From: an uncultured Tepidisphaeraceae bacterium
GTDB lineage: Bacteria > Planctomycetota > Phycisphaerae > Tepidisphaerales > Tepidisphaeraceae
DNA length: 25,229 nucleotides
Reading direction: 5' to 3'
Assembly (NCBI GenBank): GCA_964433485.1
Contig: CAYSSA010000002.1
Span: forward strand, 6,661 to 31,889
Made by a program: the position numbers and the translations under genes. Of this stretch, positions 268 through 25,229 are shown piece by piece. The notes beneath the pieces are model-generated. The model worked only from the letters and a program-made list of their open reading frames with translations. It ran no database searches and had not been told where the DNA came from. Each line of letters opens with the position of its first letter. The first letter of the stretch is position 1.

Positions 268-270
268 GAT

Positions 271-340
271 GTCCTCCATGAGGTTCTGGGTTTCGGGTCT
301 CTCACCCCGGTTGGAGAGCCGAAACCCGGAACCGGAGGAC
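271..340 (-). promoter_or_regulatory. Long leader stem-loop pairing with the ardA Shine-Dalgarno
   Basis: Three stacked stems: gtcctcc(271-277)/ggaggac(334-340); ggttctgggtttcgg(282-296)/ccgaaacccggaacc(319-333), one mismatch; ctctc(299-303)/gagag(314-318). Total about 27 bp. Function is inferred. Confidence 0.65.
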
Positions 341-9230: not shown

Positions 9231-9237
9231 ACAGACC

Positions 9238-9533
9238 TCCTCGAAAAAGAGGATTTGTTGCGGCAACCGGCTCCGAGCCACACCGGCCCAGCGTTTTTTT
9301 CCCGGCCGCCGCTCTCGCAAGAGAGCTGGCGGCGGCCGGGAAAGAACCCCCGGCGGCACCCCGTGGAGGCGCCGGGAGCGAGCGGGGAGTGACGGGCTGA
9401 AGCGGAGCGCCGCCTGCGTAATCGCCGAAGGCCAGTCATCGGCGGCGCGCAGCGCTCGGCACGACAAGAGCGAGCGACCAAGCCGGAGCGGGGTGTCGCC
9501 GGGCGGCTCACACCGCGGCGAAGCCGCCGTGAG
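9238..9533. promoter_or_regulatory. Structured non-coding leader upstream of parB
   Basis: Main hairpin 9298-9343: 13 bp + 6 bp, 4-nt bulge, GCAA loop. Further stems: 9349-9355/9370-9376, 9423-9428/9439-9444, 9453-9457/9468-9472, and 9507-9533 with a GCGAAGC core. Stem 9238-9242/9249-9253 covers the SD. Confidence 0.5.
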
Positions 9534-9549
9534 GCTGGAAACTCGATGA

Positions 9550-11019
9550 TCAGATGTAATAGCGGAATTGTGGTAACGGTTCTCGATCCTGCCCCGTCGG
9601 CATTTCTCGCATGATGTCGCCGACCAATCGCGAGAAGCGTAGTGTAATAGGCATCAACCCGGCGAAGGATGCCGAGTTCCAGTTCATCTTGGTGAGCGTG
9701 AGAATCTCTTGAAGCAACGCCTCAATGGAGCTGTCGCCAAAATGGTCGGCGACTTGGAGCGGCGAGGGCACATGGCCGTGTGGGTAAGCCTTGAGCGCCG
9801 GGATGAACCCGGTTGTGTACAGATAGTGCGTGTCGCCAACCTGAAAACTCGTGCCCCGGAGCGGTGGATATTGCCCCGCGCGGAGCAGTCGGGCCTGGCT
9901 GGTTGGACTGACCGCAAGCAGGTCGAATTGCTGCACCTGTTTCAGGGCGGCCTCAAAGCCCTTCTTCTCATCCGGCCAGAAGCGAGAGGATTTGTGAATC
10001 ACAACGCGGGTGGGCTTCTGGCGCATCTCTGCTTCGTAACGGCGGAGCACCAGAGCAATCAGGTCGTTCGCCATTGACTCGCTCAAGTGGGGTGAGTTCC
10101 CGTGCTTGTCCTCGTCCCAGAGGAAATCCTGACCCCTGAGGACAATTCCGTCGCCGTGTTCGTCGAACGCCTGCGCAACGCTGCTGCGCATCTGCTGGGA
10201 CTTGGAGCCAAGGGAGCGAAAGAAGCTGATCCCGATGTAACATGTGCCGGGCCGCAACTGGCGAGGTGACCATGGAATACCGCCGCACTTGAAATACATC
10301 CCCGTAAAGAAGTTCCACGCGCACTTGGATCGGTGATCGACCTTCTTTGAGTCGGGGGCCGCCTCAGAAGTCCGCTGGAGAAGGATCTGCGTGGGCAGGC
10401 GGTACTTCATCGCCTCGGCCTTGAGTGCTCGGCGAAAATCACGATGCACCGACCCGAGAACGGGATCGGTGTAATCCACCGTCTTGCAATCCTCAAGAAG
10501 CGAATCAGGCAGGGCAAGAACGACGTATGTGGGCGGATTGTCTCGCTCCGACAGGAGGCGCAACTTTTGGGAAACCAGGTCCAGTGCTGCGGTGAAGCGA
10601 TCCCGAAGCAGCCTTGGCTGCTCTACCCCCGTCAAATCATGCGTGGTCAGGACTTCATTCAGGCTTGGGTCCACCATCAGATCAGAGAAAAATCCACGGT
10701 CGCTCTTGAAGCCCGGAAAGTCGGGATGATCGGAGTTGCCCTTGGCGCCTTCCGCACATGAGGTGATCCAGTTACGGGAAGACTCGATGCTCTCGCCTGT
10801 TCCGATGAAGCCCAAGCGAATGGTCAAGGGGTGGCGGGGAAGGTCGAGGGATCGCGGGCCGAAAATCGCGATTCCCGTTTGGGGGCTCACATGTTCACGC
10901 CCGCCGCAGAAACCCAAGGGAGGCTCAGATAGGTACTGGGCCTTCAGTACCGGCGCGGTGATGTCGATACGGCGGATCGGCTTTGAGGTGGCGTGATGCA
11001 AGTGTTTATGCTTCTTCAT
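9550..11019 (-). CDS. Short prokaryotic Argonaute (MID-PIWI only, 489 aa, catalytically inactive)
   Basis: Start at ATG 11019 (GAGGAGG RBS). LSEPPLGF...GIAIFGP N-terminus; MID motif FRRALKAEAM...PTQIL...YFKCGGIPW (R-K type); PIWI CYIGISFF, VVIHKSSRF, LTKMNWN, PITLRFS. GIS and HKSS replace the catalytic Asp positions. No N or PAZ domains. Confidence 0.95.
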   Translation of the reverse strand: MKKHKHLHHATSKPIRRIDITAPVLKAQYLSEPPLGFCGGREHVSPQTGIAIFGPRSLDLPRHPLTIRLGFIGTGESIESSRNWITSCAEGAKGNSDHPDFPGFKSDRGFFSDLMVDPSLNEVLTTHDLTGVEQPRLLRDRFTAALDLVSQKLRLLSERDNPPTYVVLALPDSLLEDCKTVDYTDPVLGSVHRDFRRALKAEAMKYRLPTQILLQRTSEAAPDSKKVDHRSKCAWNFFTGMYFKCGGIPWSPRQLRPGTCYIGISFFRSLGSKSQQMRSSVAQAFDEHGDGIVLRGQDFLWDEDKHGNSPHLSESMANDLIALVLRRYEAEMRQKPTRVVIHKSSRFWPDEKKGFEAALKQVQQFDLLAVSPTSQARLLRAGQYPPLRGTSFQVGDTHYLYTTGFIPALKAYPHGHVPSPLQVADHFGDSSIEALLQEILTLTKMNWNSASFAGLMPITLRFSRLVGDIMREMPTGQDREPLPQFRYYI

Positions 11020-12310
11020 CGTCGCCCTCCTCTTCCGGTTCCAGGTCGGTGAGGTCTCCAGCTTCCTCCTTGATGGCATCAAGTTCGGCCAGGGTGAACA
11101 GATCCTCCTCATAGGAGATGTGGGTGAACGACTTGGCATCGTTGGGAACTCCAGGCCAAGAAAGCGTAGTGTTGAGGAGTTCCGTACTGATGGTCAAGTG
11201 CTGACCGCCGCCATAATCGAAGACGATACGCGGCGTGCCGTTGGAGAGGAAATCCCGCCAAAAATTCACCTCCGTCAGCACGTTGGCGTTGTACATGTGC
11301 GACTTGCGGCTGGTTACGCGGCGACCTGTCCCCTTGGGCGTGATCGCCTTGAAGCCATCGAAGGTGAATCGACGTTCCGGACGAATGGAAAGACACCACT
11401 GCCCATCCGCCACGCGATGGAAAGCCAGCCCCACGGCCATGTGCTCCCAATATTTCTTTACTTCCCCCGTGTGTTTGAAGAACGGGTTCCACGCCACCTT
11501 TCGGGAGACCTGTTTGCCGGTCAAAGACGTGTAGACTACCGACAGATCCTGGCCGGGCTTCGCAGGTTCAAAATAGTACCGGCTGTGCTCCTTGTCGAGT
11601 TGGAGTCGCATGCGGCCCGTGAGCTTATTGAGGGAGCGGTTGAGCAACTGCACATACCACCGGGCGCGGTCGGGGTCATCCCACCACCGTACGGCGGGGA
11701 TTGGCCGGGCTTGGCTAAGGTTGGTTACGTCTCGGAAGGGGCTCTGGCTAGAGGTAAGGTTGTCGAATGTGTACAGCTCTCGGTCGCGGACAATGTAGGG
11801 GAGCATGACTTTGGGATTGTCCGGGGCGTGGAGTTTTGCACGAACGTCTGGCTCCTCCACGGTGCATGAGACAGCGAAGATGGTCATTGGGACATGTGTG
11901 ACCGGCAGCAACGTGCTGTGGACGGTATCTGTAACTTGGGCCTCGGGTTGGCTGGTGTGGAGAAACAATTGCCGGGGCGTCAACTGCTGTTGCACCCAGC
12001 GTTCGTGGTCCAGCTTCATCTGAACAAGCTTCTCAACCGTGTAGGTCTGAGGCTGTCGATCCACGATCTCGTGGTGAGCATGGCAGAGCAGGAGCAGGTT
12101 ATCGTAGCCATCCAACTCCCCGCCGGGTGGCTGCTGAGTGCTGCGTGGCCCTCCGGGGCTCTGTGCCACGATGTGCGCGATTTCCCCCAGCGTCACCGAT
12201 GGATCATTTTCGTTGGCGGAAACTACCAGTCCGCGGCGGCAATCCGGAAACGAACATGTGGCGCCAGATTTGCCCCACAGAATCTGTTTGATCCGGTCGG
12301 TGATTGCCAT
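11006..12310 (-). CDS. HNH endonuclease-APAZ fusion, partner of the short pAgo
   Basis: N-terminal HNH: LWGKSGATCSFPDC...GEIAHIV...GPR...DNLLLLCHAHHEIVD. The rest is APAZ-like (STLLPV, YVQLLNRSL, RYYF, LSIRPERRFTFDG, YNANVLTEVNFWRDFL) with an acidic tail. Overlaps the pAgo start by 14 nt. Confidence 0.88.
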   Translation of the reverse strand: MAITDRIKQILWGKSGATCSFPDCRRGLVVSANENDPSVTLGEIAHIVAQSPGGPRSTQQPPGGELDGYDNLLLLCHAHHEIVDRQPQTYTVEKLVQMKLDHERWVQQQLTPRQLFLHTSQPEAQVTDTVHSTLLPVTHVPMTIFAVSCTVEEPDVRAKLHAPDNPKVMLPYIVRDRELYTFDNLTSSQSPFRDVTNLSQARPIPAVRWWDDPDRARWYVQLLNRSLNKLTGRMRLQLDKEHSRYYFEPAKPGQDLSVVYTSLTGKQVSRKVAWNPFFKHTGEVKKYWEHMAVGLAFHRVADGQWCLSIRPERRFTFDGFKAITPKGTGRRVTSRKSHMYNANVLTEVNFWRDFLSNGTPRIVFDYGGGQHLTISTELLNTTLSWPGVPNDAKSFTHISYEEDLFTLAELDAIKEEAGDLTDLEPEEEGDDEEA

Positions 12311-12320
12311 CGTGCCTCCC

Positions 12321-15300
12321 TCAAGTCAGCTTGAAGTCTGCGTCCACGTCCTTCAGCAGAGCGTTGATGTCACTTACGACGGAGGCGGGCGGGGGTGTCT
12401 TTCCGTCGCCGACCTCCAGGCGGACATGGAACTTCATGGCGACCTTCGCCTTTGCCTTGACTTCCAATAGCGCCGGGATGAGGTCCCCCAAGTCTTGAAC
12501 CTGCGACGGCTCAAAATCCGCCGCGGCGCTCCTGACATTGGGCGGCGCAGAACCTCCACCAGGTCCGCCGCCCGCGCCGCCCCCAGTTCCGCCGCCGGCG
12601 CCTGCGGTGGCGAGCTTGATCTTCACCGTCTGGGCGGCGGGTAGGTCGGATGGCCAAGGGGCAGAGTCGTCAGTCAAGGCAATGAACCTCGCCTGTAATG
12701 ATCCGCCGATCACGTCGCGCACGGTCTTCCACGGCAGCGTGTTGCCTGCCTGCTGAGATAGCGCGGTGGCGATGGCCAGGGCGGTTGTATTGCCGTCCTT
12801 CCACGCGGCGGACAAGTTCTCCGGCAGGATTGCGGCGGCCGAAATCGGTGGCGGCGGCGTGCGCAGTTTGGCGCTGGGGGACAGTACCCCGGCGGGGATC
12901 GGTTCAGCCAAAAGGCTGGCAGGCCCGGACAACAGCCACACCTTGCCGGCGGCGACGGCTTCACCGATGGCGGCGTTGACTACGTCGGCGGACGCCTTGG
13001 GAATTGGCATTGGTTCCTGGAAGCCGCCCTTATCCACCTGTACGACGGTCTTGCCGCCGAAATAATCGAGCGCCGCCTGGGCGGTAAGCTCGTCGCCGGC
13101 CCACAGCGATGGCAGCGCTTTGGGCGCAAGTAATTCCGGAGAAATGTCGGCCAGTTCCGCCGCTTCGGGCAGAACTAGCTCCAGCGCCGGGTCGGCCAGC
13201 GCCGCATCGTCCGGCTGCGAACGCCACCAGGTCCGGAATGTACGGTCCGGTCGTTGGAGCTTGAGAACGAACGTCCCCTGAACGCAGCCACCGACGAGCG
13301 TTTCGACAATTGCCTGCGCCTTGAGCATCTTGGGAAGGTGCGGCAGTTGTGCGAAGGCACCCGCCAGATCCTTCACGCGGCGGCTGGTTTCGCCGCCTTT
13401 CCACAGGTTGTACGGGCCATCTGGCAATAGGGCTTCGGCGGTAATGGCTGTGTCCTGGACGCGGGAACGGCTGTCATTCTTGATGGTGTCAAAGTGCGCA
13501 TCTTCGCCGACGGTGATCTTGAATGCCTGGACCTCGTCCTTGTCCGAAACCGTCACGACGATGCAATAGGCTTGGCGAATGGCCTCCGGCACGCGAGCCT
13601 TGGCCTTGTCGATGTTGATCTTGAGGGTCTGCAAGCGAGCGACATCCACGGAGCCCTTCTGCTTCTTCTCCTCCTCGTTCTTCGGCGTCAGGTCGTTCAT
13701 GACCCGCTCCCACGCAAGGAAATCGCGCATGCGGGCTTCGGCTGCACTCAGGCCGTCCTTTGAGGCAGCCAGGAGCAGGACCGCGTTGCGGAAGACGCGC
13801 GGCTTTTCCGGGCCGGTCGTCTCATCCAGGAATCGCTTGGCTTCCGGGCTGGGTTTGCCGGAATCCGACGATGCGCTTGGTGACATGATGGCGTAGTGGA
13901 ACAGTCCATCGTCCTCAATGTCCCTCGCCTTGGTCGGAAGCGTGTGGACGCGGACACCGGCCGCCGAGGCGCCGCTGGTCAGCGTCTTGGCCTTGCCAAT
14001 CTCATCGACCAACCTCGCCCGGACCAACTCGTCGGTGATGTTCGCCGCGGCGGCGGACTGCATCTGAATCAGGTTCGGGCGATTGCCCAACCGCCATTCA
14101 GCGGGCAGTTGCCCTTCCTTCTCGGGCATATTGGTGTCGTCAAGCCAGTGGCTATTACGCGCCCACCGGGCCAGGCCCTTCTCAAGCTCGATTTTGTCCG
14201 GGCGGCACGGACCGATGAGCATCAAGAGGTCCCGGGTCTTGGCGCTGCGTCCGGTGGGCTGGGAATGCAGGAAGGTGGCCATGGCGGCCTGCTCAATCTC
14301 GCGCAGCTTCAGACCGACGGCTTCCGACTGTACGCGGCGAGCGCTTTCCAATTCGTTCTCCACAATGCCCGTCCAGCGCGTAGCCTGGCCGTCGCCAACG
14401 ATGGTGTCGGCAATCGAGACGAGCTCGCGGGCAGCCTCGGAAAGCCCAGCCTGTTTCGGCGAGCTGAGGAACACAGACGCGCCCACCAGAGGGCTATCGT
14501 CCCATTTCTCGGCCTCGCGTAGCGCCAACGCGAACGTGCGCAGCACGCCGCGGGTCTTCTGGAATCGCTCGATCCCTGCTGCCCACTTGGAGTAGAACAC
14601 GTCCGTCAATTCGGGGTGGAAGGGGTAGCTCTTGAGGTATCGCTCCTCCGCCGTTGCACCCTGCTTGGCCGTCTGGTCGTCCAGAGCGGCGATGCCCTTG
14701 AGGGCCGCGATGACGTGCTGCGGCCAGGTACCGCGCAACTCCACCGATTTGGGATCGAACAGCCGGCGGCGGAGCACCTCGGCCACGTCATCCTTCTCAA
14801 CAGGCTGCACGGCCTCCTCTCGCTGGCGCTGGAAGATATCGTACAGACCCGACACGATCTTCTTGCCCAGCGGATCGGCCTGGTCTTTTGGTTCGCTGGA
14901 CAGCAGCGACGCCACGATGCAGCACCGCTGAACCTTGGCCGCCGCCTGAGTCAGGTACTGGAAGAATCCAACGAGCACGTCCAGGAAGCCGGGCTCCAAG
15001 TGACATCGCACCTTGGCGTACAACAGCACCTCGTCGAGAAGAATCAGAATCCCCAGCCCGGATTTAAGGGGGAGCGACAACAACTCGGTTAGCGTGTTTT
15101 CGGCCGGGGGCGTGTTGCGTTCCTCGGCTTTCCCCTCAGCGTTCAACAGCTTGAGACCTTGATCGCCCGCGAGCTGGTAGGCCAGCAGGCTCCACGGCTG
15201 CTTGAGCCGGCGCACGGCGCCATCGGGGCCGCGCACGTCGCAACCCGTCTCAACGTCCAGTTTGTCAAAGCAGAGCGCGGCGACGCGAGCTTTCGGGGGC

Positions 15301-16917: not shown

Positions 16918-19900
16918 GCTTCACCCGCTTCTGGTATGCCCGGCAGCATCGGCCCCTGTTCCTTGACAGCGCCCTTGGCGCCGATGTGATTGCTGATGCT
17001 CTCCAGCAGCGAACGCTCGCTGTTGGTGGACAGTTCGATGAGGGACTGCACGACGCGCTTGAACAACTCGTTCCGCCGCAGTGCATGCTGATCAAGGTAT
17101 CCATCGACCTTCTGCACATCGCCTTCTTTCCACAAGTGCATCACACGGTGGATGCGGTCGATTAGCGGCACGGCCTTGCCGGCTGGGGCTTCGTAGCCAA
17201 TGCTCTTGCCACGTCGCTGGTTCCACGCTTTTAGCTTCACCTTTCCGCCGCCACCGGCATCGCCTTCATCCGCGTCAGCATCGACGTCGTCGTCACCTTC
17301 GGTATCGGCGGCATCAACATCGGCATCGGCGGCATCTTCATCAGCGCCGGCGTGCGCGATGATCTCCCATGTACGATCGAGATCGCTGTCGGTGAGGCCA
17401 CAGGCGGTAGCGTAGAGGATGCACGCGCCCGCTGGCGCATCATCCATTCCGAAGTCATGGCGGTGCAGCAGGTAATAGGCTGTCACCTCATCCAAACGGT
17501 CGGCGGCGGCCAAGTCGGAGCCTTTCTCGCCGGTCAGCACCTGGCCGACGACATAGTCCACCACCATTCGCCGGACGTGGTTGAGAAATTCGCCGACGGT
17601 CATCGTGGCGTTGGGCTCGTTGGCCTTCCGCACGACGGGGTGTTTACTGTATGCCTCCAACGCCGGCCCGGTGGCCGCCCAGACGAAGTCCGGGCCACGT
17701 ATCCCCGCGTCCCAATACTCTCGCAGGCGATCCGCAATGTTGGCCTTCATCTCCTGCAGGACAGTATTGTCCCAGCCTGGGCGAGCCGTGGCCGGACGTT
17801 TTCTGCAAACGAGCCACACGGACGAGGCGAGAGCCGCGGAACCCAAGGAGCGAACGCGATTGCCCATTTCGGTCTGAATGGGCCACGACCCGTCCACTGT
17901 GAATCCAGCACGGATGATCGCCGAAACGAGCGTTTCCCAGGCATTCGGTTGCTTATTGGCGAAGACGATTACGAGGCGACCTTCGGGCTTTAGAGCTTGC
18001 GCACACGCAACGAATGCGCGGGCCATGCCATCTTCATATGCCTGCTTGCTCTTAGTGCCGTCCATCCCATGACGGCTGCAATCATCGATCAATTCACCGT
18101 CGTTGGCTTCGTGGTTCCACTTCGGTGAAAGAGGCGAGTTGAACGCAGTGTCGATAGCGGGTGACGCGCCTTGCAAAGACCTGCGTAACCACACATAGAA
18201 GAAGTCCATCAAGTCAGAGTATGGAATGGCATCGTAGTACGGCGGGTCGGTTAGGATGATGTCCAGCCCGTCGGACAAAGCTTGCGTGGCACTGCCGGAT
18301 TTCACGCATGGTGCGGGCTGTCGCTCGATAGCGGCGAGCGTCCGAGAAATGAATAGCGCAATCCATTCGATGGCGCCCAGATAACCACCGGACGTTTCGG
18401 AGGCAACTCCGACTTCAGTGAAGTCCCACACCATCGGCAAGGCGAACCTGCCGAAGGTATTCCGCATCTTCTCGCCACTATTATGCCAAGTACAAACGGC
18501 TGACCCGTAGTCTGCAAGGCGATCAGCGGCGATAGCCAGATACGCCTCAACGGCCTCGATCCATTCCGGCGGGTAACTATTGGCGGCAAGGACTTTGCCC
18601 GTTTGCCGTGTAGCCGACACCACGGTGCCCAAAGCTGTGAGTTGTCGGGCAGTAAATAGCTTTCGCCATCTGTCAAATCCGTATAGCGGCACGCGCATCC
18701 CGAGTGCGTCCTCGCTGGGCATTGGCTCCTCCGGGATGCCGAACGGCACATTGGCAAATGCCTGCTCAATCCGCTCCTGATCTGGCGTGGCGACCGCTAG
18801 CTCGAACTCGGTTGGTAGGCGGTATTCCTTCCCATCGGGGCCGTCCACGACGACGGCTGTCATGACACTGCCCAAACGGTTCGCCCGGCCTTCAGTGCGC
18901 ATATCCTCCATTGTCATGATGGCTGGGCAGCAAGGGCACTTGGCGCCGGCGCGGCTCATGGTGCCGGCGGCGATGCGTTTGTCGTGCTCGCGGCGCTGGG
19001 CCGCATTGCCGCCCTGGACAGGGACATTGGCCTGGATGCCGAACACGACCCGCTTGGTGCCCGACGGGTTGGGCACGACGGCTGCTGACGCCGATGATGC
19101 GAAATGGGCCGCCACCTTGGCGCGGACGGCTTCCGCCGTCTGCTCCATGTGTGGATCGATATCGCGCGCCTCCATCGTCAGCAGTACGCGCTTGCGGTCC
19201 TTCTTGCACAGCCACCGGGTCTTGAGCAGCGGTATTTGCGAGCGGCAATTTTTGCACGTGACCGTCCGCGCCCACAGATAGGCGACGGTCGGCTTGGCCA
19301 CCCATCGCGGGTTACGCCTGTCGGCAACGTAATCCTCTGTGAACTCGCCGTTCAACGAGTTGATGTCGGCGGTGCCATCGTCGGTCAGCGGAACCAGGCG
19401 CATGGGTTGGCGCTCATAGGCGACATGGTCTTTCTTTAGCGGTTCAAAATCGGCATAGGTGGGGTAAAGGCCGGCAAGTTCGCGGCGGGCATGGTCCAGC
19501 ACCCACTGGCCCCAGCCACGGATATGCCAAGCCAGATCGGCGTCGATGGCCATGTCGCCGCCGGCGATGTCGAGGCTCATCTGCTCCCCGTGTTCCAGCT
19601 TGTGGCCGAGTTGCTCCAGTCGCTTCTTCACTTGCGCTTTACTCAGGCCATGCGCTTTGAAGAAGGACTCCATGAACGTCTTATTGTTCAGGATGAACTT
19701 CGGCAGCGACCGCTTCTGCCCGGCCAACTTCTGCGGATACTCCAACGTGCATTTGAGGATGAACCACGCGACGGGGTTAATATCGACAGCCGTGGCCTCG
19801 CAACCCAGGCGCATCGCCTCAAACGGAATTGCGCCGCCGCCGGCGAACGGATCGAGCACCTTGGGGGCGCGGCCGCCGTAGGCTTTGCGAATTTCCTGAC

Positions 19901-20255
19901 GGAACCATTCGAGCGTGTCGGCGTTCTCGACTTCGCGACCCCAGTGAAGGATGCCGCCCTCGGTCTCCTCCTTGATCCGGTCTACGACCTGTCCGTTGGG
20001 CATCTTCTTCTTTTCGATCCGCTTGACGACCTTGCCGCCGATCTTCTCGCATAGTTCGCGGCGTTTCTCCGGATCGCCCGGGTCGGGAAGCAGCGTGGCG
20101 ATGAGCGCTGCCCGGCAAGCCGCCAGCGGCCGCCGCGCCGGCCAGATGTGAAGTGTCGAAATATGCCCGTGGCGGACTGCCTTCTCGTGGACAGAATCCA
20201 GCGAAGTCTGTTTCAGCGGGAATGCGTGTTCGATGAGTCGGGAAAAGTCAGTCAT
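16914..20255 (-). CDS. DUF1156-family DNA amino-methyltransferase (probably N6-adenine)
   Basis: DUF1156 signature GHISTLHIWPARRPLAACRA; motif I VLDPFAGGGAIP; motif IV ILTDPPYYD; CKNC and CPCC Zn-ribbon pairs; WPIQTE. Confidence 0.93.
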   Translation of the reverse strand: MTDFSRLIEHAFPLKQTSLDSVHEKAVRHGHISTLHIWPARRPLAACRAALIATLLPDPGDPEKRRELCEKIGGKVVKRIEKKKMPNGQVVDRIKEETEGGILHWGREVENADTLEWFRQEIRKAYGGRAPKVLDPFAGGGAIPFEAMRLGCEATAVDINPVAWFILKCTLEYPQKLAGQKRSLPKFILNNKTFMESFFKAHGLSKAQVKKRLEQLGHKLEHGEQMSLDIAGGDMAIDADLAWHIRGWGQWVLDHARRELAGLYPTYADFEPLKKDHVAYERQPMRLVPLTDDGTADINSLNGEFTEDYVADRRNPRWVAKPTVAYLWARTVTCKNCRSQIPLLKTRWLCKKDRKRVLLTMEARDIDPHMEQTAEAVRAKVAAHFASSASAAVVPNPSGTKRVVFGIQANVPVQGGNAAQRREHDKRIAAGTMSRAGAKCPCCPAIMTMEDMRTEGRANRLGSVMTAVVVDGPDGKEYRLPTEFELAVATPDQERIEQAFANVPFGIPEEPMPSEDALGMRVPLYGFDRWRKLFTARQLTALGTVVSATRQTGKVLAANSYPPEWIEAVEAYLAIAADRLADYGSAVCTWHNSGEKMRNTFGRFALPMVWDFTEVGVASETSGGYLGAIEWIALFISRTLAAIERQPAPCVKSGSATQALSDGLDIILTDPPYYDAIPYSDLMDFFYVWLRRSLQGASPAIDTAFNSPLSPKWNHEANDGELIDDCSRHGMDGTKSKQAYEDGMARAFVACAQALKPEGRLVIVFANKQPNAWETLVSAIIRAGFTVDGSWPIQTEMGNRVRSLGSAALASSVWLVCRKRPATARPGWDNTVLQEMKANIADRLREYWDAGIRGPDFVWAATGPALEAYSKHPVVRKANEPNATMTVGEFLNHVRRMVVDYVVGQVLTGEKGSDLAAADRLDEVTAYYLLHRHDFGMDDAPAGACILYATACGLTDSDLDRTWEIIAHAGADEDAADADVDAADTEGDDDVDADADEGDAGGGGKVKLKAWNQRRGKSIGYEAPAGKAVPLIDRIHRVMHLWKEGDVQKVDGYLDQHALRRNELFKRVVQSLIELSTNSERSLLESISNHIGAKGAVKEQGPMLPGIPEAGEA

Positions 20256-20260
20256 TTACG

Positions 20261-21190
20261 TCATCCTTGAGCGAGGGCAATCTCGCCAAAACTCCAAGAG
20301 CGACCGCCCTTCGTGCCGATTAGCAGGGGATTTTGCGGCGGAGCGATCGTCAACTTCACGTGCCCTTGTTTGCGTGTCGTGATCATCTTGTAATCCGCGT
20401 CGCCGACCTTGATGCCACGAACCGGATCCTGGCAGTATCGCGAGTCAACGTGAGGGTCTTTGGACACAACGGAGACCAAGACGACCGCGGGCTTGGCGAG
20501 GTTCAGGAGGTCAACGGAGTAGGCGGAGGCATGACCATGGTGAGGGGCCACCAAAATGTCGATTCCGGTCACGAACGGCCGCCAGGCGGCGCCGTATTGG
20601 CCAGTGTCCGCAATGATGGCTTCCCACGCCTCTTTTTCCAAATCGCCGCATAGGAGGATTGAGTTGCCATGCACGTCGATGCGAGTAACGACGCTGGCGT
20701 TGTTCACGCGACTGTTCGCTTGGCCGCCGACCTGCCTCGCCACCGTCACGGGCAAAGCCAATTCACGAATCACTACGCCGCCATAGTCTGGATAGCCGGT
20801 GGTCGTGAATGTACCCGCGAAGTGCGAAGCGAAGGCGTGTACTTCAGGCCACGAGTCATCGGTACTCGTTGAGCGGCAGTCCTCCAGGTACTCCTGGTCG
20901 AAATCGACGGTCTTGAGGAAATCCGGTCCGTACTCGAAGAGACGAGCATGGTCGGCCAGGTGATCACAATGCAGGTGACTGATGGTGCCCTTGAGAAACC
21001 TGAAGGGAGTGCGGATCATCAACTGCGCGTACGGCGAGGCCGATGCCGGCGTCTCGCGGCGTGCAATCCACTGGATCGGTGAAAACGTGGATGTGCAGCC
21101 TGCATCGAAGAGACACCAGCGGCCATTAGGCAAGCGCAGGCCAGCGCATTGCCCATGATCGACATTGAAGAGGAAGAATTCGGTATTCAC
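20261..21190 (-). CDS. ComEC/Rec2-type metallo-beta-lactamase-fold hydrolase (MBL-2, 309 aa)
   Basis: Start reassigned to GTG 21190 (GGAGG RBS; GTGA overlap with the upstream stop). Motifs: FNVDHGQC, FDAG, SHLHCDH, NNASVV, LLCGDLE, APHHG, VSV, TTRKQGHV. No signal peptide. Confidence 0.88.
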   Translation of the reverse strand: MNTEFFLFNVDHGQCAGLRLPNGRWCLFDAGCTSTFSPIQWIARRETPASASPYAQLMIRTPFRFLKGTISHLHCDHLADHARLFEYGPDFLKTVDFDQEYLEDCRSTSTDDSWPEVHAFASHFAGTFTTTGYPDYGGVVIRELALPVTVARQVGGQANSRVNNASVVTRIDVHGNSILLCGDLEKEAWEAIIADTGQYGAAWRPFVTGIDILVAPHHGHASAYSVDLLNLAKPAVVLVSVVSKDPHVDSRYCQDPVRGIKVGDADYKMITTRKQGHVKLTIAPPQNPLLIGTKGGRSWSFGEIALAQG

Positions 21191-21846
21191 GCCGGCCTCC
21201 CGTTGTTGGCAGCGGCCGGCAGCTGCAGGTACTGAACGAACACCTCGCGTGCATAGCGAACGGCAAACCGGTGCATGCGATAGATGGCGAGCGAAATGAG
21301 CACGGCGAGGATTACCTCCACCTTCCACGCCCGCCAATGCATGATTGCCGATGCAACCAGAAGCACAATCAAGCCGGCTGCAATGCCGCGGCAGAGTCCG
21401 TAGTTGCCATTGAAAATGTCAACGCGGTTGTTCTGCTTTGCCGCTTCCACGGCGGCGTAAACCTGCCGGGTGATTGCGTACCACTGCTTGGCAGTGGCGT
21501 TAGACAGAGCAAATGCTGGGTCGCTCACGCTCAAACGGACACGCCCTTCGAGCATCGTGCGCTGTGACGGAGCAATTATTTCGTGTTTGCCGCTGCGAAC
21601 CCAGTCCGTCGGCATCCCGCCCCAGAACCACCACCAGCCCGTCTCGACTGCATTGCCGATTGCTTGAAGAAGCTGCCCGGCAACATAGGCGAGAATCAAA
21701 CCGACGCCAAGGCTTCCAAGGGAAACACTGGAAATGGCGACCAGATCTTTGCTGTGGTCGGGGAAGAACAAGAGTACCAGGCCGACGATGAACACCATGC
21801 CTGGCGCGATGACGCCCGCCGTTCCGTAGAAATCGAACTCTTTCAT
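21187..21846 (-). CDS. Uncharacterised 4-TM membrane protein (219 aa; alternative TTG start at 21885)
   Basis: Hydrophobic segments: AGVIAPGMVFIVGLVLLFF, LGSLGVGLILAYVAGQLL, GIAAGLIVLLVASAIM, VEVILAVLISLAIY. Soluble middle loop; GAGG RBS before ATG 21846. Confidence 0.8.
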   Translation of the reverse strand: MKEFDFYGTAGVIAPGMVFIVGLVLLFFPDHSKDLVAISSVSLGSLGVGLILAYVAGQLLQAIGNAVETGWWWFWGGMPTDWVRSGKHEIIAPSQRTMLEGRVRLSVSDPAFALSNATAKQWYAITRQVYAAVEAAKQNNRVDIFNGNYGLCRGIAAGLIVLLVASAIMHWRAWKVEVILAVLISLAIYRMHRFAVRYAREVFVQYLQLPAAANNGRPA

Positions 21847-21881
21847 AACCGTACCTCGCTTCCATAGCCGCGTCATGTACC

Positions 21882-22838
21882 TCAACGGTCATACTGGGAA
21901 CGAATCGTCGGCTTTGCCGCGGCGTCATACGTGATCTCGATGTTTCCCTTCCAGCGGGTGGACCATACGTTCTCCGAGTGCTTCCGGTACTTGTCGGATG
22001 CGTCTGTTTCGGGTTTCTTGCCCACGGATACGATGGTGTATTGCGGCTTCATCAACTCGACGGCCCTATCGTGATAACCGGAATCACGGCCGTGGTGACT
22101 CGCCTTCAGGACTGTGCACTTCAATCCTGATCCGTACCGTTTCACGAGATCATCCCACACCACTTCTTCCGCATCACCGGCCAGGACGATTTTCACGCCG
22201 CCAAGGGTTACGCGCAGCACATAGCTCAGGTCGTTGACGTTGTCCGAATCTTGAATTGCCCGGAGGGTGGCGGGATTGGGGTGAAGGATGTCGATCCCGT
22301 CACCACCATCGACGCCGTCGGGGTCCTGATTCCAGAATGTGCCTTTGTCGCCACAGTATTTCCGAAGCACTTTGGGGGAGCCGTTGGGCGACCCGCGGAG
22401 CCGCTTGTACTCGTTCCACGATTTCCGGTCGGCATCGCTTGTGAGATCAGGAATGAATGTGTGGTCCGTGTCCCAGAAGTTCACAATGTCAATGTTGTGC
22501 GCCTTGAGTTGCTCAATGCCACTCAAATGGTCAAGGTGAGGATGCGTTTGAACATAGCGGAAGATGTCCTTGCCTGGGTAGTTCTTGCTGAGGAATTCAA
22601 TCGGGTTTGTCAGCTCGATGTCATAGCCGGCCTCCTTGACCATGCCGTAGCTGCGCTGGCCAAGAGCTTCGGCAAGCATCAATCGCATGTTGCCCTGTCG
22701 ATAATACTGACTGACTTCCGCGAGGGATTCGTGGTCTAACTCGGTGCAGTTGTTCACGTCAACGACCGTCAGTCGGCCGCTGGCGTGTTCGATAACGGTG
22801 CAGTCGCCATGCCCGACATTTAAGAAGGTAATCTTCAC
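21882..22838 (-). CDS. ComEC/Rec2-type metallo-beta-lactamase-fold hydrolase (MBL-1, 318 aa)
   Basis: Motifs: FLNVGHGDC, THPHLDH, NDLSYV, LAGDAE, KASHHG, VSVG, STRWKGNI. GTG start overlaps the helicase stop (GTGA), with a GAGGAGG RBS. Confidence 0.9.
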   Translation of the reverse strand: MKITFLNVGHGDCTVIEHASGRLTVVDVNNCTELDHESLAEVSQYYRQGNMRLMLAEALGQRSYGMVKEAGYDIELTNPIEFLSKNYPGKDIFRYVQTHPHLDHLSGIEQLKAHNIDIVNFWDTDHTFIPDLTSDADRKSWNEYKRLRGSPNGSPKVLRKYCGDKGTFWNQDPDGVDGGDGIDILHPNPATLRAIQDSDNVNDLSYVLRVTLGGVKIVLAGDAEEVVWDDLVKRYGSGLKCTVLKASHHGRDSGYHDRAVELMKPQYTIVSVGKKPETDASDKYRKHSENVWSTRWKGNIEITYDAAAKPTIRSQYDR

Positions 22839-25229
22839 AGCGACTCCTCCTCAGCCACTTGGGCGATTTGGGCCGCCGATATCGCAACGCCACCGACCGT
22901 TATGGTCGAACGGATGGTCCGCTCATTGGTCTGCTGCTTGGAGAATGGTCGCACCAGCAGCTTTTGAAATGGGTCTTGCACGCGGACCATCGTGGGCGTA
23001 GGCGTGGCACATTGATAAACGACGTAAAGCCAGTAGCCGTCCCGGAGATTGCAGGCCCTGGCCCATTCGTTGTCGGAGATTTGAATCTCCCCGGTCGTCG
23101 CGCGGCCTTTGACCTCGATGGCACGAGTTTCTCGTAGCGTGCCCTCACGGGGAGGCCGAAGCGAGAGCAGGTCGAATCCGGGATTGTCGGTTAGGCCGGC
23201 GGCGCGGGCTAGCTCGGGAGTGTGGACATCCTGCACAATAGCGCCGGCGGCTTCCTCGTATGCGCGAGCAAGATCCATCGCAACTCGTTCAACGTCGGCG
23301 TCGTGCTGCTCCAGATCGTCGGGATTGGTCGATGGCACGACAAGAGCGTGCGCCAGGAACGTCAGGTGTCCGGGGGCAATCAACTCCGGCTCTCGATGGA
23401 GTGTTGCCACTGCCATGGCGCGGCGTTGGGCGAGGGAACGTTGCTGGTCCTTGATCTCCTTCAGCGCCTTGAGTGCCGCGGAGTTTCCGGACCGGGACTT
23501 TTCCGATTGCTTCACCCGGGCTGCGGCAAGCTCAGCTTCCTGGAAGTCAAAGCCACGCTGGACGAACTGCTCGCGCTCTGGGAGTGTGGCCAGAAGCGCA
23601 GTTCGTCGTTCCATCGCCATCGTGCGGGCGACGCGCTCGACCATGAACGCCTGGGCCTGGGCCTTGAGCTTCTCGGCGGACATGGCAATGCGCTGCGCCG
23701 CCGGCGGGAGGCCATGGCCGCCTCTGAGCAGCAGCAGGTGTTCGACCGGGCAGAGAGCAAGTTCGACACCCTCGCGCTGCTTAACACCAACAAGCGTGCA
23801 ATCGAGAATCTCCTCGCTGGCCAGATCGGGAAGCTCGGGGTCGGCTTGGCGGACGACGCTGACCAGGGCAAGGTGAAAAAGGTACGGCTTGTCGGTGGTC
23901 GGATCGACGAACACGGCACCGCGAAGGGCCTGGTCGCCCAGACGGTCGCTCACGACGGCGCGGAAACGCTCGAAAACAGGCTCTCCCGGGTGGACCCAGA
24001 TGCGGGCGTCCTTCTCCGTGGGCAGCGGCCGCACAACGGAGAGGCATCCGCGCTGGCGGGCCGGATACATTTCGAGCGTGTGGAGGAGGAGGTCAATAGC
24101 GCCCTTCGAGGCCGGCCGCATGGAGAAGCAGGCATCCATGTCGCCATCAAGCTCGATATCCACGAGCGGTGCGGCGTTTTCGACGTAGTTCCTGACATAG
24201 CCCGGCAGCAGACGGCAATATGCCTCCTGCTGGAGGTCTTCACGCAGCCGTGGGAGTTGGCGCTTCACGTCGCCCCCGTCGCCGTAGAGCATGCGCTCCT
24301 GCGCAGCCAGTGCCTCCACCTGCTCCTTGGTGAGGCGGCCGTCCAATTCGCTGGCGACGGAACCGGCGCCGTCCACCAAAGCCTGCTCCATGTAGGTCTT
24401 GAGGGAGACGCCCTCAAAGAGACGGCCGATGGAGTCGAAGACCTTTTCGCTGCCCAGACTGTCGCGGATGGTATCGAGCTTGTTTAGAAGCGTCTGGATG
24501 ACCAAACCCTCGCGGGTCTTGGGCGCGACGAGGTTGACGATCTGCACAGGGTCGTGCTTCTGGCCATAACGGTGAATGCGTCCCATCCGCTGCTCAAGGC
24601 GGGCAGGATTCCAGGGGATGTCGAAGTTCACCATGATCCAGCAGAACTGGAGGTTGATGCCTTCGGCAGCGGCGTCGGTGCAGATCATGAAGCGGGCGCC
24701 GCCGTCTTCGTGGGGCAGGCGGAATCGTTCGACCTGTTCCTGGCGCTCGGTGTAGAACATGCCGCCATGAATCTGCGCGATCTGCCCTGTGTATCCCATG
24801 CCCCCCAGTCGCTGGATGAGATAGGTGAGCGTGTCACGGTGCTCGGTGAACACGATGAATTTCTCACCGGCGAAGCGCTCGTCGGTCAAAACTTCCCGCA
24901 ACTTGTCGAACTTTGATTCGGCGCCCTGGTCGAAAACCTTCTGCGCCAGGTTGCGAAGGCCAACCACCTGCTCGCGCTCGACGACAAGATCGGTCAGCGA
25001 AGCAGCGATGACGCCGGCGAGCAGGCGATCCTCGGACACTTCGCCTTCCTCAAGTCCATCTTCGGGCGATTCTTCGTCGGCTGTCTTCGTATCGAGAACA
25101 TCATCCTCCTCGGCCAGACGGCGCTGGAGAATGACAAGCTGTTCCTCGGTGAGTTTGCCTTCCTGGACTTGCCGGATCAGGTCGTCGAGTTTGCCGATCC
25201 GGCGCTCGAATGATCGCAGCAGCGCGAAC
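22835..25229 (-). CDS. SF2/SNF2-type helicase with C-terminal DUF3883 (NOV-C-like) nuclease domain, 5'-truncated
   Basis: The frame is open to the window end (FALLRSFERRIGKLDDL... precedes the ORF-track start at 25039). Helicase motifs IV-VI: FIVFTEHRDT, TDAAAEGINLQ, DIPWNPARLEQRMGRIHRYGQ. C-terminal PGFDLLS...IEVKG...SDNEW...YWLYVV. Confidence 0.92.
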   Translation of the reverse strand, partial: FALLRSFERRIGKLDDLIRQVQEGKLTEEQLVILQRRLAEEDDVLDTKTADEESPEDGLEEGEVSEDRLLAGVIAASLTDLVVEREQVVGLRNLAQKVFDQGAESKFDKLREVLTDERFAGEKFIVFTEHRDTLTYLIQRLGGMGYTGQIAQIHGGMFYTERQEQVERFRLPHEDGGARFMICTDAAAEGINLQFCWIMVNFDIPWNPARLEQRMGRIHRYGQKHDPVQIVNLVAPKTREGLVIQTLLNKLDTIRDSLGSEKVFDSIGRLFEGVSLKTYMEQALVDGAGSVASELDGRLTKEQVEALAAQERMLYGDGGDVKRQLPRLREDLQQEAYCRLLPGYVRNYVENAAPLVDIELDGDMDACFSMRPASKGAIDLLLHTLEMYPARQRGCLSVVRPLPTEKDARIWVHPGEPVFERFRAVVSDRLGDQALRGAVFVDPTTDKPYLFHLALVSVVRQADPELPDLASEEILDCTLVGVKQREGVELALCPVEHLLLLRGGHGLPPAAQRIAMSAEKLKAQAQAFMVERVARTMAMERRTALLATLPEREQFVQRGFDFQEAELAAARVKQSEKSRSGNSAALKALKEIKDQQRSLAQRRAMAVATLHREPELIAPGHLTFLAHALVVPSTNPDDLEQHDADVERVAMDLARAYEEAAGAIVQDVHTPELARAAGLTDNPGFDLLSLRPPREGTLRETRAIEVKGRATTGEIQISDNEWARACNLRDGYWLYVVYQCATPTPTMVRVQDPFQKLLVRPFSKQQTNERTIRSTITVGGVAISAAQIAQVAEEESL

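What the first reader, a model, noticed from the sequence alone, without database searches (positions are those of the whole stretch)
9550..25229. One translationally coupled nine-gene defence operon joining a restriction-like core to an HNH short Argonaute
Seen in sequence: nine co-oriented genes with coupled or near-coupled junctions: helicase/MBL-1 GTGA overlap; 35-nt gap; TM/MBL-2 GTGA overlap; 5-nt gap; methylase/yhcG ATGA overlap; 8-nt overlap; 10-nt gap; 14-nt overlap. I saw no internal terminator. Established knowledge: DUF499 ATPase + DUF1156 methylase + SNF2 helicase-nuclease resembles the restriction-like system of Gao et al. 2020, and short pAgo/APAZ systems are usually stand-alone two-gene units. 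Inference: the core may act as a first-line self/non-self restriction layer, while its nuclease products or failure trigger the pAgo-HNH abortive layer. The alternative is a hotspot that collects independent modules.
Basis: partly seen in the sequence, partly recalled or inferred. Interest (0 to 1): 0.85.

Follow-up and report, generated by a model that had tools for sequence, protein, structure and literature searches.

The report
Argonaute-HNH module appended to Hma operon
Nine tightly packed defence genes on a conjugative element are real, but they are a patchwork of four separable known modules, not one dedicated machine; the Argonaute-HNH pair (SPARHA) turns out to sit habitually at the tail of restriction-type operons.

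Summary
All catalytic motifs are intact and I found no convincing internal terminator. The first gene (hmaA) runs about 1.26 kb past the window end.

The genes form a mosaic of four modules:
- an Hma / type-1 BREX-related core: HmaA SNF2 helicase-nuclease, HmaB DUF1156 methylase, HmaC DUF499 ATPase;
- an MBL-4TM-MBL cassette (PDC-M48-like) between hmaA and hmaB;
- a YhcG nuclease (PDC-S02) between hmaB and hmaC;
- a complete SPARHA system (HNH-APAZ plus short pAgo), closely related to the solved AcaSPARHA, 10 nt after hmaC.

About 100 related Hma loci carry these cargo modules in every combination. Only one other has SPARHA. On the HmaC tree the SPARHA-linked rows are scattered. Hma as a host of embedded defence genes is already published.

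From the SPARHA side the link is not random. Of 49 dereplicated SPARHA loci, 11 lie directly downstream of, and co-oriented with, a methylase-containing restriction operon (Hma, type III, type I or PglX), in at least nine separate lineages. Earlier notes of this scan report other Argonaute modules in Hma operons on other DNA.

Verdict: layered, co-transcribed but separable modules. Direct biochemical coupling is possible and untested.

The parts
22835..25229 (-). hmaA, 3' two thirds. SNF2 helicase (Helicase_C) with a C-terminal NOV_C / PD-(D/E)XK nuclease. The gene continues outside the window to an ATG at window-coordinate ~26490, where it also carries an N-terminal XRE-type HTH_3 and the SNF2 N lobe.
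   Evidence: PADLOC HmaA 2e-72, Pfam Helicase_C and NOV_C. The N part gives HmaA 2.3e-49, HTH_3 and SNF2-rel_dom. The apparent split is an N run. GAGKT, DEAH and EVK motifs are present.
21882..22838 (-). MBL-1: metallo-beta-lactamase-fold protein (putative nuclease/hydrolase). First gene of the cargo cassette in the hmaA-hmaB slot.
   Evidence: PADLOC PDC-M48B 3.6e-25, Pfam Lactamase_B weak. HPHLD motif. The same cassette sits at the same place in L049, L146, L149 and L151.
21187..21846 (-). Four-helix membrane protein, 219 aa. Middle gene of the cassette.
   Evidence: No Pfam family; weak PADLOC Csx27 match 1.7e-5. Four hydrophobic stretches: 6-31, 34-64, 149-173, 178-196. Homologues of 42-45% identity follow MBL-1 in L049, L146, L149 and L151.
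20261..21190 (-). MBL-2: second metallo-beta-lactamase-fold protein. Third gene of the cassette.
   Evidence: PADLOC PDC-M48B 2.5e-16. HLHCD motif. Present in L049 and absent from the two-gene version in L146/L149/L151.
16914..20255 (-). hmaB: DUF1156 N6-adenine DNA methyltransferase, 1113 aa.
   Evidence: PADLOC HmaB 1.8e-119; Pfam DUF1156 4.3e-17. FAGGG and DPPY motifs.
15667..16917 (-). YhcG / DUF1016 PD-(D/E)XK nuclease (PADLOC candidate PDC-S02). Cargo in the hmaB-hmaC slot.
   Evidence: Pfam YhcG_C 4.8e-56, DUF1016_N 1e-39; PADLOC PDC-S02 5e-129. Present at this slot in about 14 of the related Hma loci and absent from the others.
12321..15674 (-). hmaC: DUF499 AAA+ (ORC/Cdc6-like) ATPase, 1117 aa.
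   Evidence: PADLOC HmaC 2e-70; Pfam DUF499 1.8e-14. GGGKT and LILLDE motifs. 86% identical to the closest relative, L043.
11006..12310 (-). HNH-APAZ: effector subunit of SPARHA, 434 aa.
   Evidence: PDB 9om4_A (AcaSPARHA HNH endonuclease) 2.5e-150 over residues 1-431. H46, N71, H79 and H80 are invariant in 17 relatives. N71/H80 are the residues mutated to kill AcaSPARHA (PMC12738770).
9550..11019 (-). Short prokaryotic Argonaute (MID-PIWI), 489 aa: sensor subunit of SPARHA.
   Evidence: PDB 9om4_B 1.1e-186; PADLOC pAgo_I 2.1e-147. The start at 11019 is chosen by the GAGGAGG upstream and by where the homology begins.
9231..9549 (-). Spacer after the unit, with GC-rich hairpins and no T tract. 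Probable end of the transcription unit.
   Evidence: Read directly. Its fold is not better than shuffles (z = -1.3), so function as a terminator is only inferred.

Best explanation
The region is one co-transcribed string of nine genes carried on a conjugative element. It is a patchwork of four separable defence modules.

(1) The scaffold is an Hma system, also called a type-1 DUF499-centred BREX-related system. HmaB methylates adenines in host DNA. HmaC, an ORC/Cdc6-like ATPase, helps recognise DNA. HmaA, an SNF2 translocase fused to a PD-(D/E)XK nickase, attacks unmodified invader DNA. Here HmaA also carries an N-terminal XRE-type HTH that may autoregulate the operon.

(2) The hmaA-hmaB junction holds an MBL / four-helix membrane protein / MBL cassette.

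(3) The hmaB-hmaC junction holds a YhcG nuclease. Both (2) and (3) are candidate defence modules of the kind known to be embedded in Hma.

(4) Ten nucleotides after hmaC comes a complete SPARHA system. The short Argonaute loads small RNAs and pairs them with complementary invader DNA. It then polymerises with HNH-APAZ into filaments whose HNH domains degrade DNA indiscriminately, which is abortive infection.

The modules are linked by shared transcription and shared transfer, not by an obligate nine-gene mechanism. The result is layered defence: methylation-based restriction first, and an RNA-guided suicide nuclease for invaders that persist.

Shown here: gene order, junctions, family membership, intact motifs, independent turnover of the modules, and the recurrent position of SPARHA behind restriction-type operons.

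Inferred from homologues studied by others: the biochemical activities.

Inferred only: co-transcription, autoregulation by the HTH, and the benefit of layering.
For: Family assignments and intact motifs.

Tight junctions and no convincing internal terminator.

Modularity:
- The MBL-TM(-MBL) cassette occurs in the same slot in L049, L146, L149 and L151 without YhcG or SPARHA.
- YhcG occurs in about 14 loci without the other cargo.
- Other loci carry a caspase in slot 1 (L041, L004).
- No sampled locus repeats the nine-gene set.
- 35 of 79 Hma loci have a co-oriented gene within 150 nt after hmaC. The families are very diverse: DUF2130, ApeA-HEPN, TIR, OLD-TOPRIM, PDC-S28 and others.
- SPARHA-linked HmaC rows are unclustered on the HmaC tree.
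- In L004 the same SPARHA is followed, with a 4-nt overlap, by a further gene and ZacABC. Tight co-oriented packing therefore also joins plainly distinct systems.

Autonomy of the modules:
- SPARHA homologues protect as a two-gene unit in E. coli (PMC12738770).
- HmaA alone defends against T4 (PMC11232893).

Embedding is a described property of Hma: 62.7% of 1,485 systems hold embedded genes, and embedded genes have the host system's orientation in 96.7% of cases (bioRxiv 10.1101/2024.01.29.577857).

Non-random link from the SPARHA side:
- 11 of 49 dereplicated loci lie directly behind Hma, type III, type I or PglX operons.
- In a 401-genome sample of the phylum, full-length HmaC occurs in only 5 genomes and full SPARHA in 2.
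Against: - Co-transcription is not shown. No RNA run holds this DNA, and a promoter inside the 3' end of hmaC cannot be excluded.
- Promoter and terminator scans use E. coli-type consensus, which may not fit this phylum.
- The SPARHA sample comes mostly from short metagenome contigs. Negatives were annotated only in aggregate, so the counts are lower bounds and the denominators are rough.
- The recurrent SPARHA-restriction link could reflect direct biochemical coupling, which this explanation treats as unnecessary.
- The roles of the MBL cassette and YhcG are unknown.
Confidence: 0.68

Rival explanations
1. Direct biochemical coupling. Restriction-type translocase-nucleases (HmaA here; Res or HsdR elsewhere) nick, unwind or fragment unmethylated invader DNA. 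This exposes single-stranded target DNA, or yields substrates that let the RNA-guided pAgo pair with the invader and fire the HNH filament. Alternatively, inhibition of the core by a phage anti-restriction protein releases SPARHA, as with PrrC and EcoprrI.
For: - SPARHA lies directly downstream of, and co-oriented with, Hma in five separate places on its tree.
- It also lies behind type III, type I and PglX operons.
- The type III Mod-SPARHA pair is kept through a clade in which Mod has diverged to 62% identity.
- Sister SPARHA lineages sit behind Hma (L106/L107) and type I (L114/L119).
- Every partner found is an NTP-dependent translocating system; none is a simple type II pair.
- A different short pAgo system (SIR2-APAZ + pAgo) abuts hmaB in L054.
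- Notes e1-3348337, e1-1201199 and e1-3997789 report other Argonaute modules in Hma operons on other DNA (unchecked here).
Against: - SPARHA homologues work alone in E. coli (PMC12738770).
- About half of SPARHA loci stand behind a divergent gene, often next to an XRE-type regulator.
- From the Hma side SPARHA is rare, about 1 in 76 loci sampled without regard to SPARHA.
- The same host types (Hma, BREX, type I) are the published general hosts of embedded cargo of many kinds, so the choice of partner may reflect the host's habit rather than SPARHA's mechanism.
Confidence: 0.18
2. Pure juxtaposition. The 3' flank of hmaC is simply a cargo slot. SPARHA landed there by chance recombination, brings its own promoter, and gains nothing from the neighbour.
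For: - The 3' flank of hmaC holds very diverse cargo in 35 of 79 loci.
- Closest HmaC relatives carry other genes there.
- The hma region is published as an insertion hotspot (PMC11232893).
- A relative at 95-99% nucleotide identity in run X3 matches hmaA, hmaC and part of YhcG but not the SPARHA or MBL stretches. This is weak evidence, because contigs show presence and not absence.
Against: - A 10-nt gap holding only a ribosome-binding site leaves no intergenic room for a promoter. The same holds in L004 (11 nt) and L060 (24 nt behind a different gene).
- With full-length HmaC in about 1% of sampled genomes, fewer than one of 49 SPARHA loci should touch Hma by chance. At least five independent lineages do.
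Confidence: 0.1
3. A dedicated, integrated nine-gene system in which all parts depend on each other.
For: Uniform orientation and translational coupling at all eight junctions.
Against: - No other sampled locus has the same gene set.
- Each cargo module occurs without the others.
- There is no co-divergence of HmaC and SPARHA.
- Equally tight coupling joins SPARHA to ZacABC in L004.
Confidence: 0.04

Closest known systems
Hma system with embedded defence genes (PADLOC; Payne et al. 2021; bioRxiv 10.1101/2024.01.29.577857), also called the type-1 DUF499-centred BREX-related system (PMC12839542). HmaA was tested against phage T4 in PMC11232893.
   Same: - Same three core proteins with the same domains: SNF2 helicase + NOV_C nuclease, DUF1156 methylase, DUF499 ATPase.
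- Same strand.
- Cargo in both internal junctions, within PADLOC's limit of three embedded genes per junction.
- The cargo families (PDC-M48-like, PDC-S02) match PADLOC 'phage defence candidate' models, the class that paper released from genes embedded in defence systems.
   Different: - A complete Argonaute system is appended after hmaC rather than between hma genes, so it falls outside the published definition of embedded.
- The main texts I searched of those three papers do not mention Argonaute cargo.
- HmaA here starts with an XRE-type HTH, whereas PMC12839542 describes a TUDOR domain at that end of type-1 helicases.
SPARHA (short prokaryotic Argonaute, HNH-associated), clade S2B; AcaSPARHA cryo-EM structure 9om4 (PMC12738770).
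   Same: - Two overlapping genes in the order HNH-APAZ then MID-PIWI pAgo.
- Very strong full-length matches to both chains of 9om4.
- HNH catalytic residues conserved.
   Different: It has no upstream region of its own. It sits 10 nt behind a restriction-type operon on a conjugative element. The published work describes and tests SPARHA as a stand-alone pair.
PrrC embedded in the EcoprrI type I restriction locus, and BrxU embedded in BREX (own knowledge; BrxU is also discussed in bioRxiv 10.1101/2024.01.29.577857).
   Same: A suicide or second-line effector is encoded inside or at the end of a methylation-based restriction operon, in the same orientation.
   Different: For PrrC a physical and regulatory dependence on the restriction enzyme is established. 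Nothing of the kind is shown for SPARHA.
RM-type orthogroups enriched in pAgo operons (Ryazansky et al. 2018, PMC6299218).
   Same: That survey already listed SAM-dependent methyltransferases, type III restriction endonucleases, DEAD-box helicases and HsdS among proteins enriched next to pAgos.
   Different: It treated them as pAgo-associated proteins. It did not describe pAgo modules as cargo at the 3' end of complete restriction operons, and did not resolve SPARHA or Hma.

Membership tests
Hma / type-1 BR system | SNF2-family helicase fused to a C-terminal PD-(D/E)XK (NOV_C / DUF3883) nuclease (HmaA) | tested here: met
   PADLOC HmaA 2e-72 and 2.3e-49 for the two parts; Pfam SNF2-rel_dom, Helicase_C, NOV_C. 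GAGKT, DEAH and EVK motifs present. The apparent break is an N run.
Hma / type-1 BR system | DUF1156-type N6-adenine methyltransferase (HmaB) | tested here: met
   PADLOC HmaB 1.8e-119; Pfam DUF1156 4.3e-17. FAGGG and DPPY motifs.
Hma / type-1 BR system | DUF499 AAA+ ATPase (HmaC) | tested here: met
   PADLOC HmaC 2e-70; Pfam DUF499. Walker A GGGKT and Walker B LILLDE.
Hma / type-1 BR system | All three genes on one strand, each once, with at most three embedded genes per junction (PADLOC rule quoted in bioRxiv 10.1101/2024.01.29.577857) | tested here: met
   Three genes lie between hmaA and hmaB and one between hmaB and hmaC, all on the minus strand. Each of HmaC and HNH-APAZ matches once in the genome.
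Hma / type-1 BR system | Methylation-dependent protection against phage or plasmid | not testable with these tools
   Needs methylome and challenge assays.
SPARHA | Partner protein with an N-terminal HNH nuclease domain (catalytic residues intact) fused to APAZ | tested here: met
   9om4_A 2.5e-150 over residues 1-431. PADLOC hits to HNH effectors (residues 2-110) and to Aga PNTD/APAZ (118-425). H46, N71, H79 and H80 invariant.
SPARHA | Short (MID-PIWI only) pAgo of clade S2B encoded immediately downstream | tested here: met
   489 aa; 9om4_B 1.1e-186; next best matches are SPARDA-type pAgos. 14-nt overlap with HNH-APAZ. The clade name is taken from PMC12738770; I built no pAgo-wide tree.
SPARHA | Guide-RNA / target-DNA dependent filament formation and collateral DNA cleavage | not testable with these tools
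   Known for AcaSPARHA and MllaSPARHA (PMC12738770); inferred here from close homology.
PDC-S02 (YhcG / DUF1016 candidate defence gene) | DUF1016_N plus YhcG_C PD-(D/E)XK domains in a single gene | tested here: met
   Pfam 1e-39 and 4.8e-56; PADLOC PDC-S02 5e-129. The defence function of this family was not checked.
PDC-M48 (two-gene candidate) | Both components, A and B, present | tested here: inconclusive
   Both MBL proteins match PDC-M48B (3.6e-25 and 2.5e-16). The membrane protein matched no PDC-M48A model, only Csx27 weakly. I therefore call the cassette PDC-M48-like.
   One of about 76 independently sampled Hma loci has SPARHA. SPARHA-linked HmaC rows are unclustered. Five separate Hma-linked places on the SPARHA tree have Hma-free sisters.

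The most novel reading that the evidence does not exclude
Short Argonaute abortive-infection modules, here SPARHA, may be preferential second-layer partners of NTP-dependent, methylation-based restriction systems (Hma, type III, type I, BREX-like). Restriction activity on unmethylated DNA, or its blockade by anti-restriction proteins, would gate Argonaute activation. The restriction operon would then supply more than a promoter: it would supply the non-self signal. This would answer how RNA-guided short pAgos, which sample the whole transcriptome, concentrate their lethal response on invaders.
Probability: 0.18. Interest if true: 0.8.

Novelty: new variant of a known kind. Interest (0 to 1): 0.45.

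Why it matters
As a single locus this is an ordinary example of a published habit: defence genes nest in Hma operons. What goes beyond that is the view from the Argonaute side. In this sample roughly a fifth to a quarter of SPARHA lineages sit, without room for a promoter of their own, at the tail of complete restriction operons of four kinds. Sister lineages switch between kinds.

If this survives a proper census, it would mean that this toxic, RNA-guided suicide nuclease is usually expressed and transferred as an appendage of a self/non-self discriminating system.

That is directly testable with this compact 17-kb operon: measure synergy, guide loading and activation with and without the methylase and the helicase-nuclease. 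It bears on the open question of how short pAgos avoid autoimmunity.

The locus also gives a natural case of four stacked modules on a conjugative element that itself carries the anti-restriction gene ardA.

Tried and rejected
- **hmaA pseudogene: rejected.** The gene appeared as two overlapping ORFs. Alignment to three intact relatives shows the break is a run of about 89 N in the contig.
- **RNA evidence for co-transcription: none obtainable.** Only DNA runs (hot-spring metagenomes) hold the sequence. The RNA runs offered share only related proteins.
- **Read laying.** Logan contigs are short and at 3-5x depth. They confirm the hmaC/HNH-APAZ junction (record 9) but cannot test much more.
- **Mobile-cassette signature around SPARHA: none seen.** I compared the flanks of the window, L004, L060 and L005 for conserved repeats or an attC-like site and found no shared element.
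- **Canonical terminator after the pAgo: not found.** There are GC hairpins without a T tract, and the fold is not better than shuffles.
- **ParB-like gene as a tenth operon member: rejected.** It is separated by a ~320-nt spacer, has its own GGAGG-ATG, and has no homologue next to SPARHA or Hma in any locus.
- **SPARHA compensating for a lost HmaA nuclease** (the pattern described in PMC12839542): not the case here, because the NOV_C motif is intact.
- **Control set of other short pAgo loci (L021-L040): too small and unevenly annotated for a fair test.** Some also have HsdM-like neighbours, so the restriction link may be general to short pAgos.
- **Complex prediction: not run.** I do not claim that any of these proteins bind each other.

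Full report
**1. The observation**

The window is G000:C2:6661-31889, part of a 46.8-kb contig from a 69%-complete genome assembled from a hot-spring metagenome.
- two GTGA overlaps and one ATGA overlap;
- overlaps of 8 and 14 nt;
- gaps of 35, 5 and 10 nt.

Each start is preceded by a purine-rich ribosome-binding stretch. A consensus scan found one weak minus-strand terminator-like site inside the unit, without a T tract. Overall it found fewer sites than in shuffled sequence (6 against 14.9).

Two corrections follow from reading beyond the window.
- The first gene continues about 1.26 kb past the window end, to an ATG at window-coordinate ~26490.
- It looked split into two ORFs. Alignment with three intact relatives shows that the break is a run of about 89 N in the contig, not a frameshift.

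Downstream, the pAgo stop at 9550 is followed by about 320 nt with GC-rich hairpins. After that comes a GGAGG-ATG near 9230 that most likely starts the ParB-like gene. The unit therefore ends at the pAgo. A Logan contig of run X2 bridges the hmaC/HNH-APAZ junction without mismatch, so the join is not a scaffolding artefact.

**2. What the genes are**

Family assignments come from Pfam and PADLOC.

| Gene | Assignment | Key evidence |
|---|---|---|
| hmaA | N-terminal XRE-type HTH_3, SNF2 helicase, C-terminal NOV_C PD-(D/E)XK nuclease | PADLOC HmaA 2e-72 and 2.3e-49 |
| MBL-1, MBL-2 | two metallo-beta-lactamase-fold proteins | PDC-M48B |
| TM | four-helix membrane protein between the two MBL genes | no Pfam family |
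| hmaB | DUF1156 adenine methylase | PADLOC HmaB 1.8e-119 |
| YhcG | YhcG/DUF1016 nuclease | PDC-S02 5e-129 |
| hmaC | DUF499 ATPase | PADLOC HmaC 2e-70 |
| HNH-APAZ | SPARHA effector | PDB 9om4_A 2.5e-150 |
| pAgo | short Argonaute | PDB 9om4_B 1.1e-186 |

Catalytic and nucleotide-binding motifs are intact throughout:
- HmaA: GAGKT, DEAH and EVK;
- HmaB: FAGGG and DPPY;
- HmaC: GGGKT and LILLDE;
- the MBL proteins: HxHxD;
- the HNH domain: H46, N71, H79 and H80.

The HNH residues are invariant in 17 relatives. N71 and H80 are the residues whose mutation kills AcaSPARHA.

The surroundings indicate a conjugative element. They include ArdA (window 1-279), a large ParB-like protein, a DUF932 protein and a TraG/TrwB-type coupling protein.

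**3. View from the Hma side**

I collected 19 and then 80 loci around HmaC relatives from species-representative genomes. I scored them with the window's proteins and with local profiles.

The three core genes are always there. The cargo is not.
- The MBL-TM(-MBL) cassette sits between hmaA and hmaB in L049, L146, L149 and L151.
- A caspase sits in that slot in L041 and L004.
- YhcG sits between hmaB and hmaC in about 14 loci.
- No locus repeats the window's combination.

After hmaC, 35 of 79 loci with enough flank have a co-oriented gene within 150 nt. The families are very diverse: DUF2130, ApeA-HEPN, TIR, OLD-TOPRIM, PDC-S28, a Cas-like protein and others.

Only L004/L188 (HmaC 81%, pAgo 84% identical) also has SPARHA, with an 11-nt gap. 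There SPARHA is followed, with a 4-nt overlap, by one more gene and a complete ZacABC system. It is preceded by a GajB-like gene, PDC-S19 and a caspase. Tight co-oriented packing is thus no evidence of one system.

On a tree of 98 HmaC proteins the five SPARHA-linked rows need five changes, no fewer than shuffled labels need. The window's nearest HmaC relatives (L041, L140, L043, L141) carry other genes, or end, after hmaC.

**4. View from the SPARHA side**

I collected 17 genome loci and 80 metagenome loci. They give 83 clusters at 90% identity. Of these, 49 have at least 1.5 kb upstream.

In 23 of the 48 loci other than the window, the nearest upstream gene is divergent. XRE-type HTH proteins are the commonest neighbours, which fits a stand-alone unit with its own control.

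In 11 of the 49, a complete or partial restriction-type operon lies directly upstream in the same orientation:
- Hma: window, L004, L102, L107, L131;
- type III Res/Mod: L064, L068, L071, L073;
- PglX: L092;
- type I HsdR-M-S: L114.

L010 has HmaC 4.5 kb upstream, and L139 has a Res-like gene 1.5 kb upstream. Short contigs show the ends of HmaC (L103), Mod (L063, L069) or PglX (L093) just before HNH-APAZ.

On the HNH-APAZ tree the Hma-linked rows occupy five separate places, with Hma-free sisters. L106/L107 (Hma) are sisters of L114/L119 (type I). The Mod-SPARHA pair persists through a clade in which Mod has diverged to 62% identity.

L068 reads Res-YhcG-Mod-HNH-APAZ-pAgo, a type III parallel of the window's methylase-YhcG-ATPase-SPARHA.

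L054 has a different short pAgo system (SIR2-APAZ + pAgo) 4 nt before hmaB.

**5. Is the link more than chance?**

In a sample of 401 genomes of the window's phylum, a full-length HmaC of this kind occurs in 5 and a full-length HNH-APAZ in 2. Payne et al. found 1,485 Hma systems in 234,099 RefSeq genomes.

If Hma is present in about 1% of genomes, fewer than one of 49 SPARHA loci should touch it. At least five independent lineages do.

This is a rough argument, not a corrected test. The samples differ in origin, and many neighbours were annotated only in aggregate.

**6. What is already known**

- Payne et al. (bioRxiv 10.1101/2024.01.29.577857) described embedding. 62.7% of Hma systems hold embedded genes, 22.8% of those genes encode known defence systems, and embedded genes have the host system's orientation in 96.7% of cases. 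BREX, DISARM and type I R-M behave likewise. That paper made its untested candidates (PDCs) searchable in PADLOC; the families matched here, PDC-S02 and PDC-M48, carry that prefix.
- PMC11232893 showed that HmaA alone defends against T4. It called the hma region an insertion hotspot, with 66.5% of systems carrying insertions.
- PMC12839542 renamed these systems type-1 BR systems and proposed that embedded nucleases act as backup effectors.
- The main texts I searched of these three papers do not mention Argonaute cargo.
- Ryazansky et al. 2018 (PMC6299218) had already listed methyltransferases, type III restriction enzymes, helicases and HsdS among proteins enriched in pAgo operons.
- Three earlier notes of this scan report other Argonaute modules in Hma operons on other DNA: a pAgo-HEPN module, a long-B pAgo-SIR2 pair and SPARTA. 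One of those notes led me to the Payne preprint, which I then read.

**7. Mechanism and verdict**

The best-supported reading is a co-transcribed mosaic. An Hma restriction-like scaffold carries two embedded cargo modules and a 3'-appended SPARHA. Each module can act alone. Together they give layered defence on a conjugative element.

Its layered-defence idea fits the SPARHA side and matches the published general model. A dedicated nine-gene machine is not supported.

Direct coupling would mean that restriction activity, or its inhibition, gates Argonaute firing. It remains possible, at about one chance in five, and is the interesting case to test.

Shown here: anatomy, family membership, intact motifs, module turnover and the recurrent linkage.

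Inferred: co-transcription, regulation by the HmaA HTH, all enzymatic activities (from homologues) and any synergy.

Noticed in passing
L003:1238-1329 (window-coordinates ~25577-25668, outside the window): A run of about 89 N inside hmaA makes the gene look like two overlapping ORFs. It is either a scaffold gap or withheld bases. Relatives are continuous there.
   Followed up: yes
window 1-279 (-), 7353-9230 (-); L003:8573-9610 (-), L003:12162-15248 (-): ArdA anti-restriction protein, a large ParB-like protein, a DUF932 protein and a TraG/TrwB-type coupling protein flank the operon. The defence string is therefore cargo of a conjugative element that also carries an anti-restriction gene.
   Followed up: partly
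window 672-5042 (+), 5039-5668 (+): A 1456-aa Ser/Thr kinase with many WD40 repeats is translationally coupled to a protein with sigma-70 region 2. The pair is unrelated to the finding.
   Followed up: no
L003:952-2151 (-), first ~65 residues: HmaA here and in its close relatives begins with an XRE-type HTH_3 domain. PMC12839542 describes a TUDOR domain at the N terminus of type-1 BR helicases. This may be an autoregulator of the operon.
   Followed up: partly
L131:9974-15901: Behind an Hma-like operon there is an HNH-APAZ gene with no detectable pAgo after it. Instead come a 117-aa ORF and a 1380-aa PDC-S37/Hhe-like helicase. This may be a decayed or rewired SPARHA.
   Followed up: partly
L054:1-5848: A SIR2-APAZ + short pAgo pair (SPARSA-type) ends 4 nt before hmaB in a Pseudomonadales genome. 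No hmaA was found within 10 kb upstream of hmaC.
   Followed up: partly
L010:557-12930: A Gemmataceae contig holds the same three module types as the window, in another order: HmaC, two unknown genes, an HTH-M78 (RmrA-like) regulator, SPARHA, then a 235-aa protein and a PDC-M48B MBL protein (3e-93).
   Followed up: partly
L068:3012-12707: Res - YhcG - type III Mod - HNH-APAZ - pAgo, all coupled. This is a type III restriction operon with the same embedded YhcG and the same appended SPARHA as the window's Hma operon.
   Followed up: partly
L060:3720-3880: Directly after the pAgo stop of the closest metagenomic SPARHA relative, the sequence reads like the C-terminal two thirds of ribosomal protein S12. 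This may be a chimeric contig or an insertion next to rpsL.
   Followed up: no
L230:4159-8910 and 13663-17226 (window ~13100-17850 and ~22600-26165): Run X3 (another study) holds contigs 95-99% identical to hmaC, part of YhcG, part of hmaB and hmaA. It holds nothing at that likeness for SPARHA, the last ~290 codons of hmaC or the MBL cassette. This hints at cargo and C-terminal-domain turnover between very close relatives, but contigs cannot show absence.
   Followed up: partly
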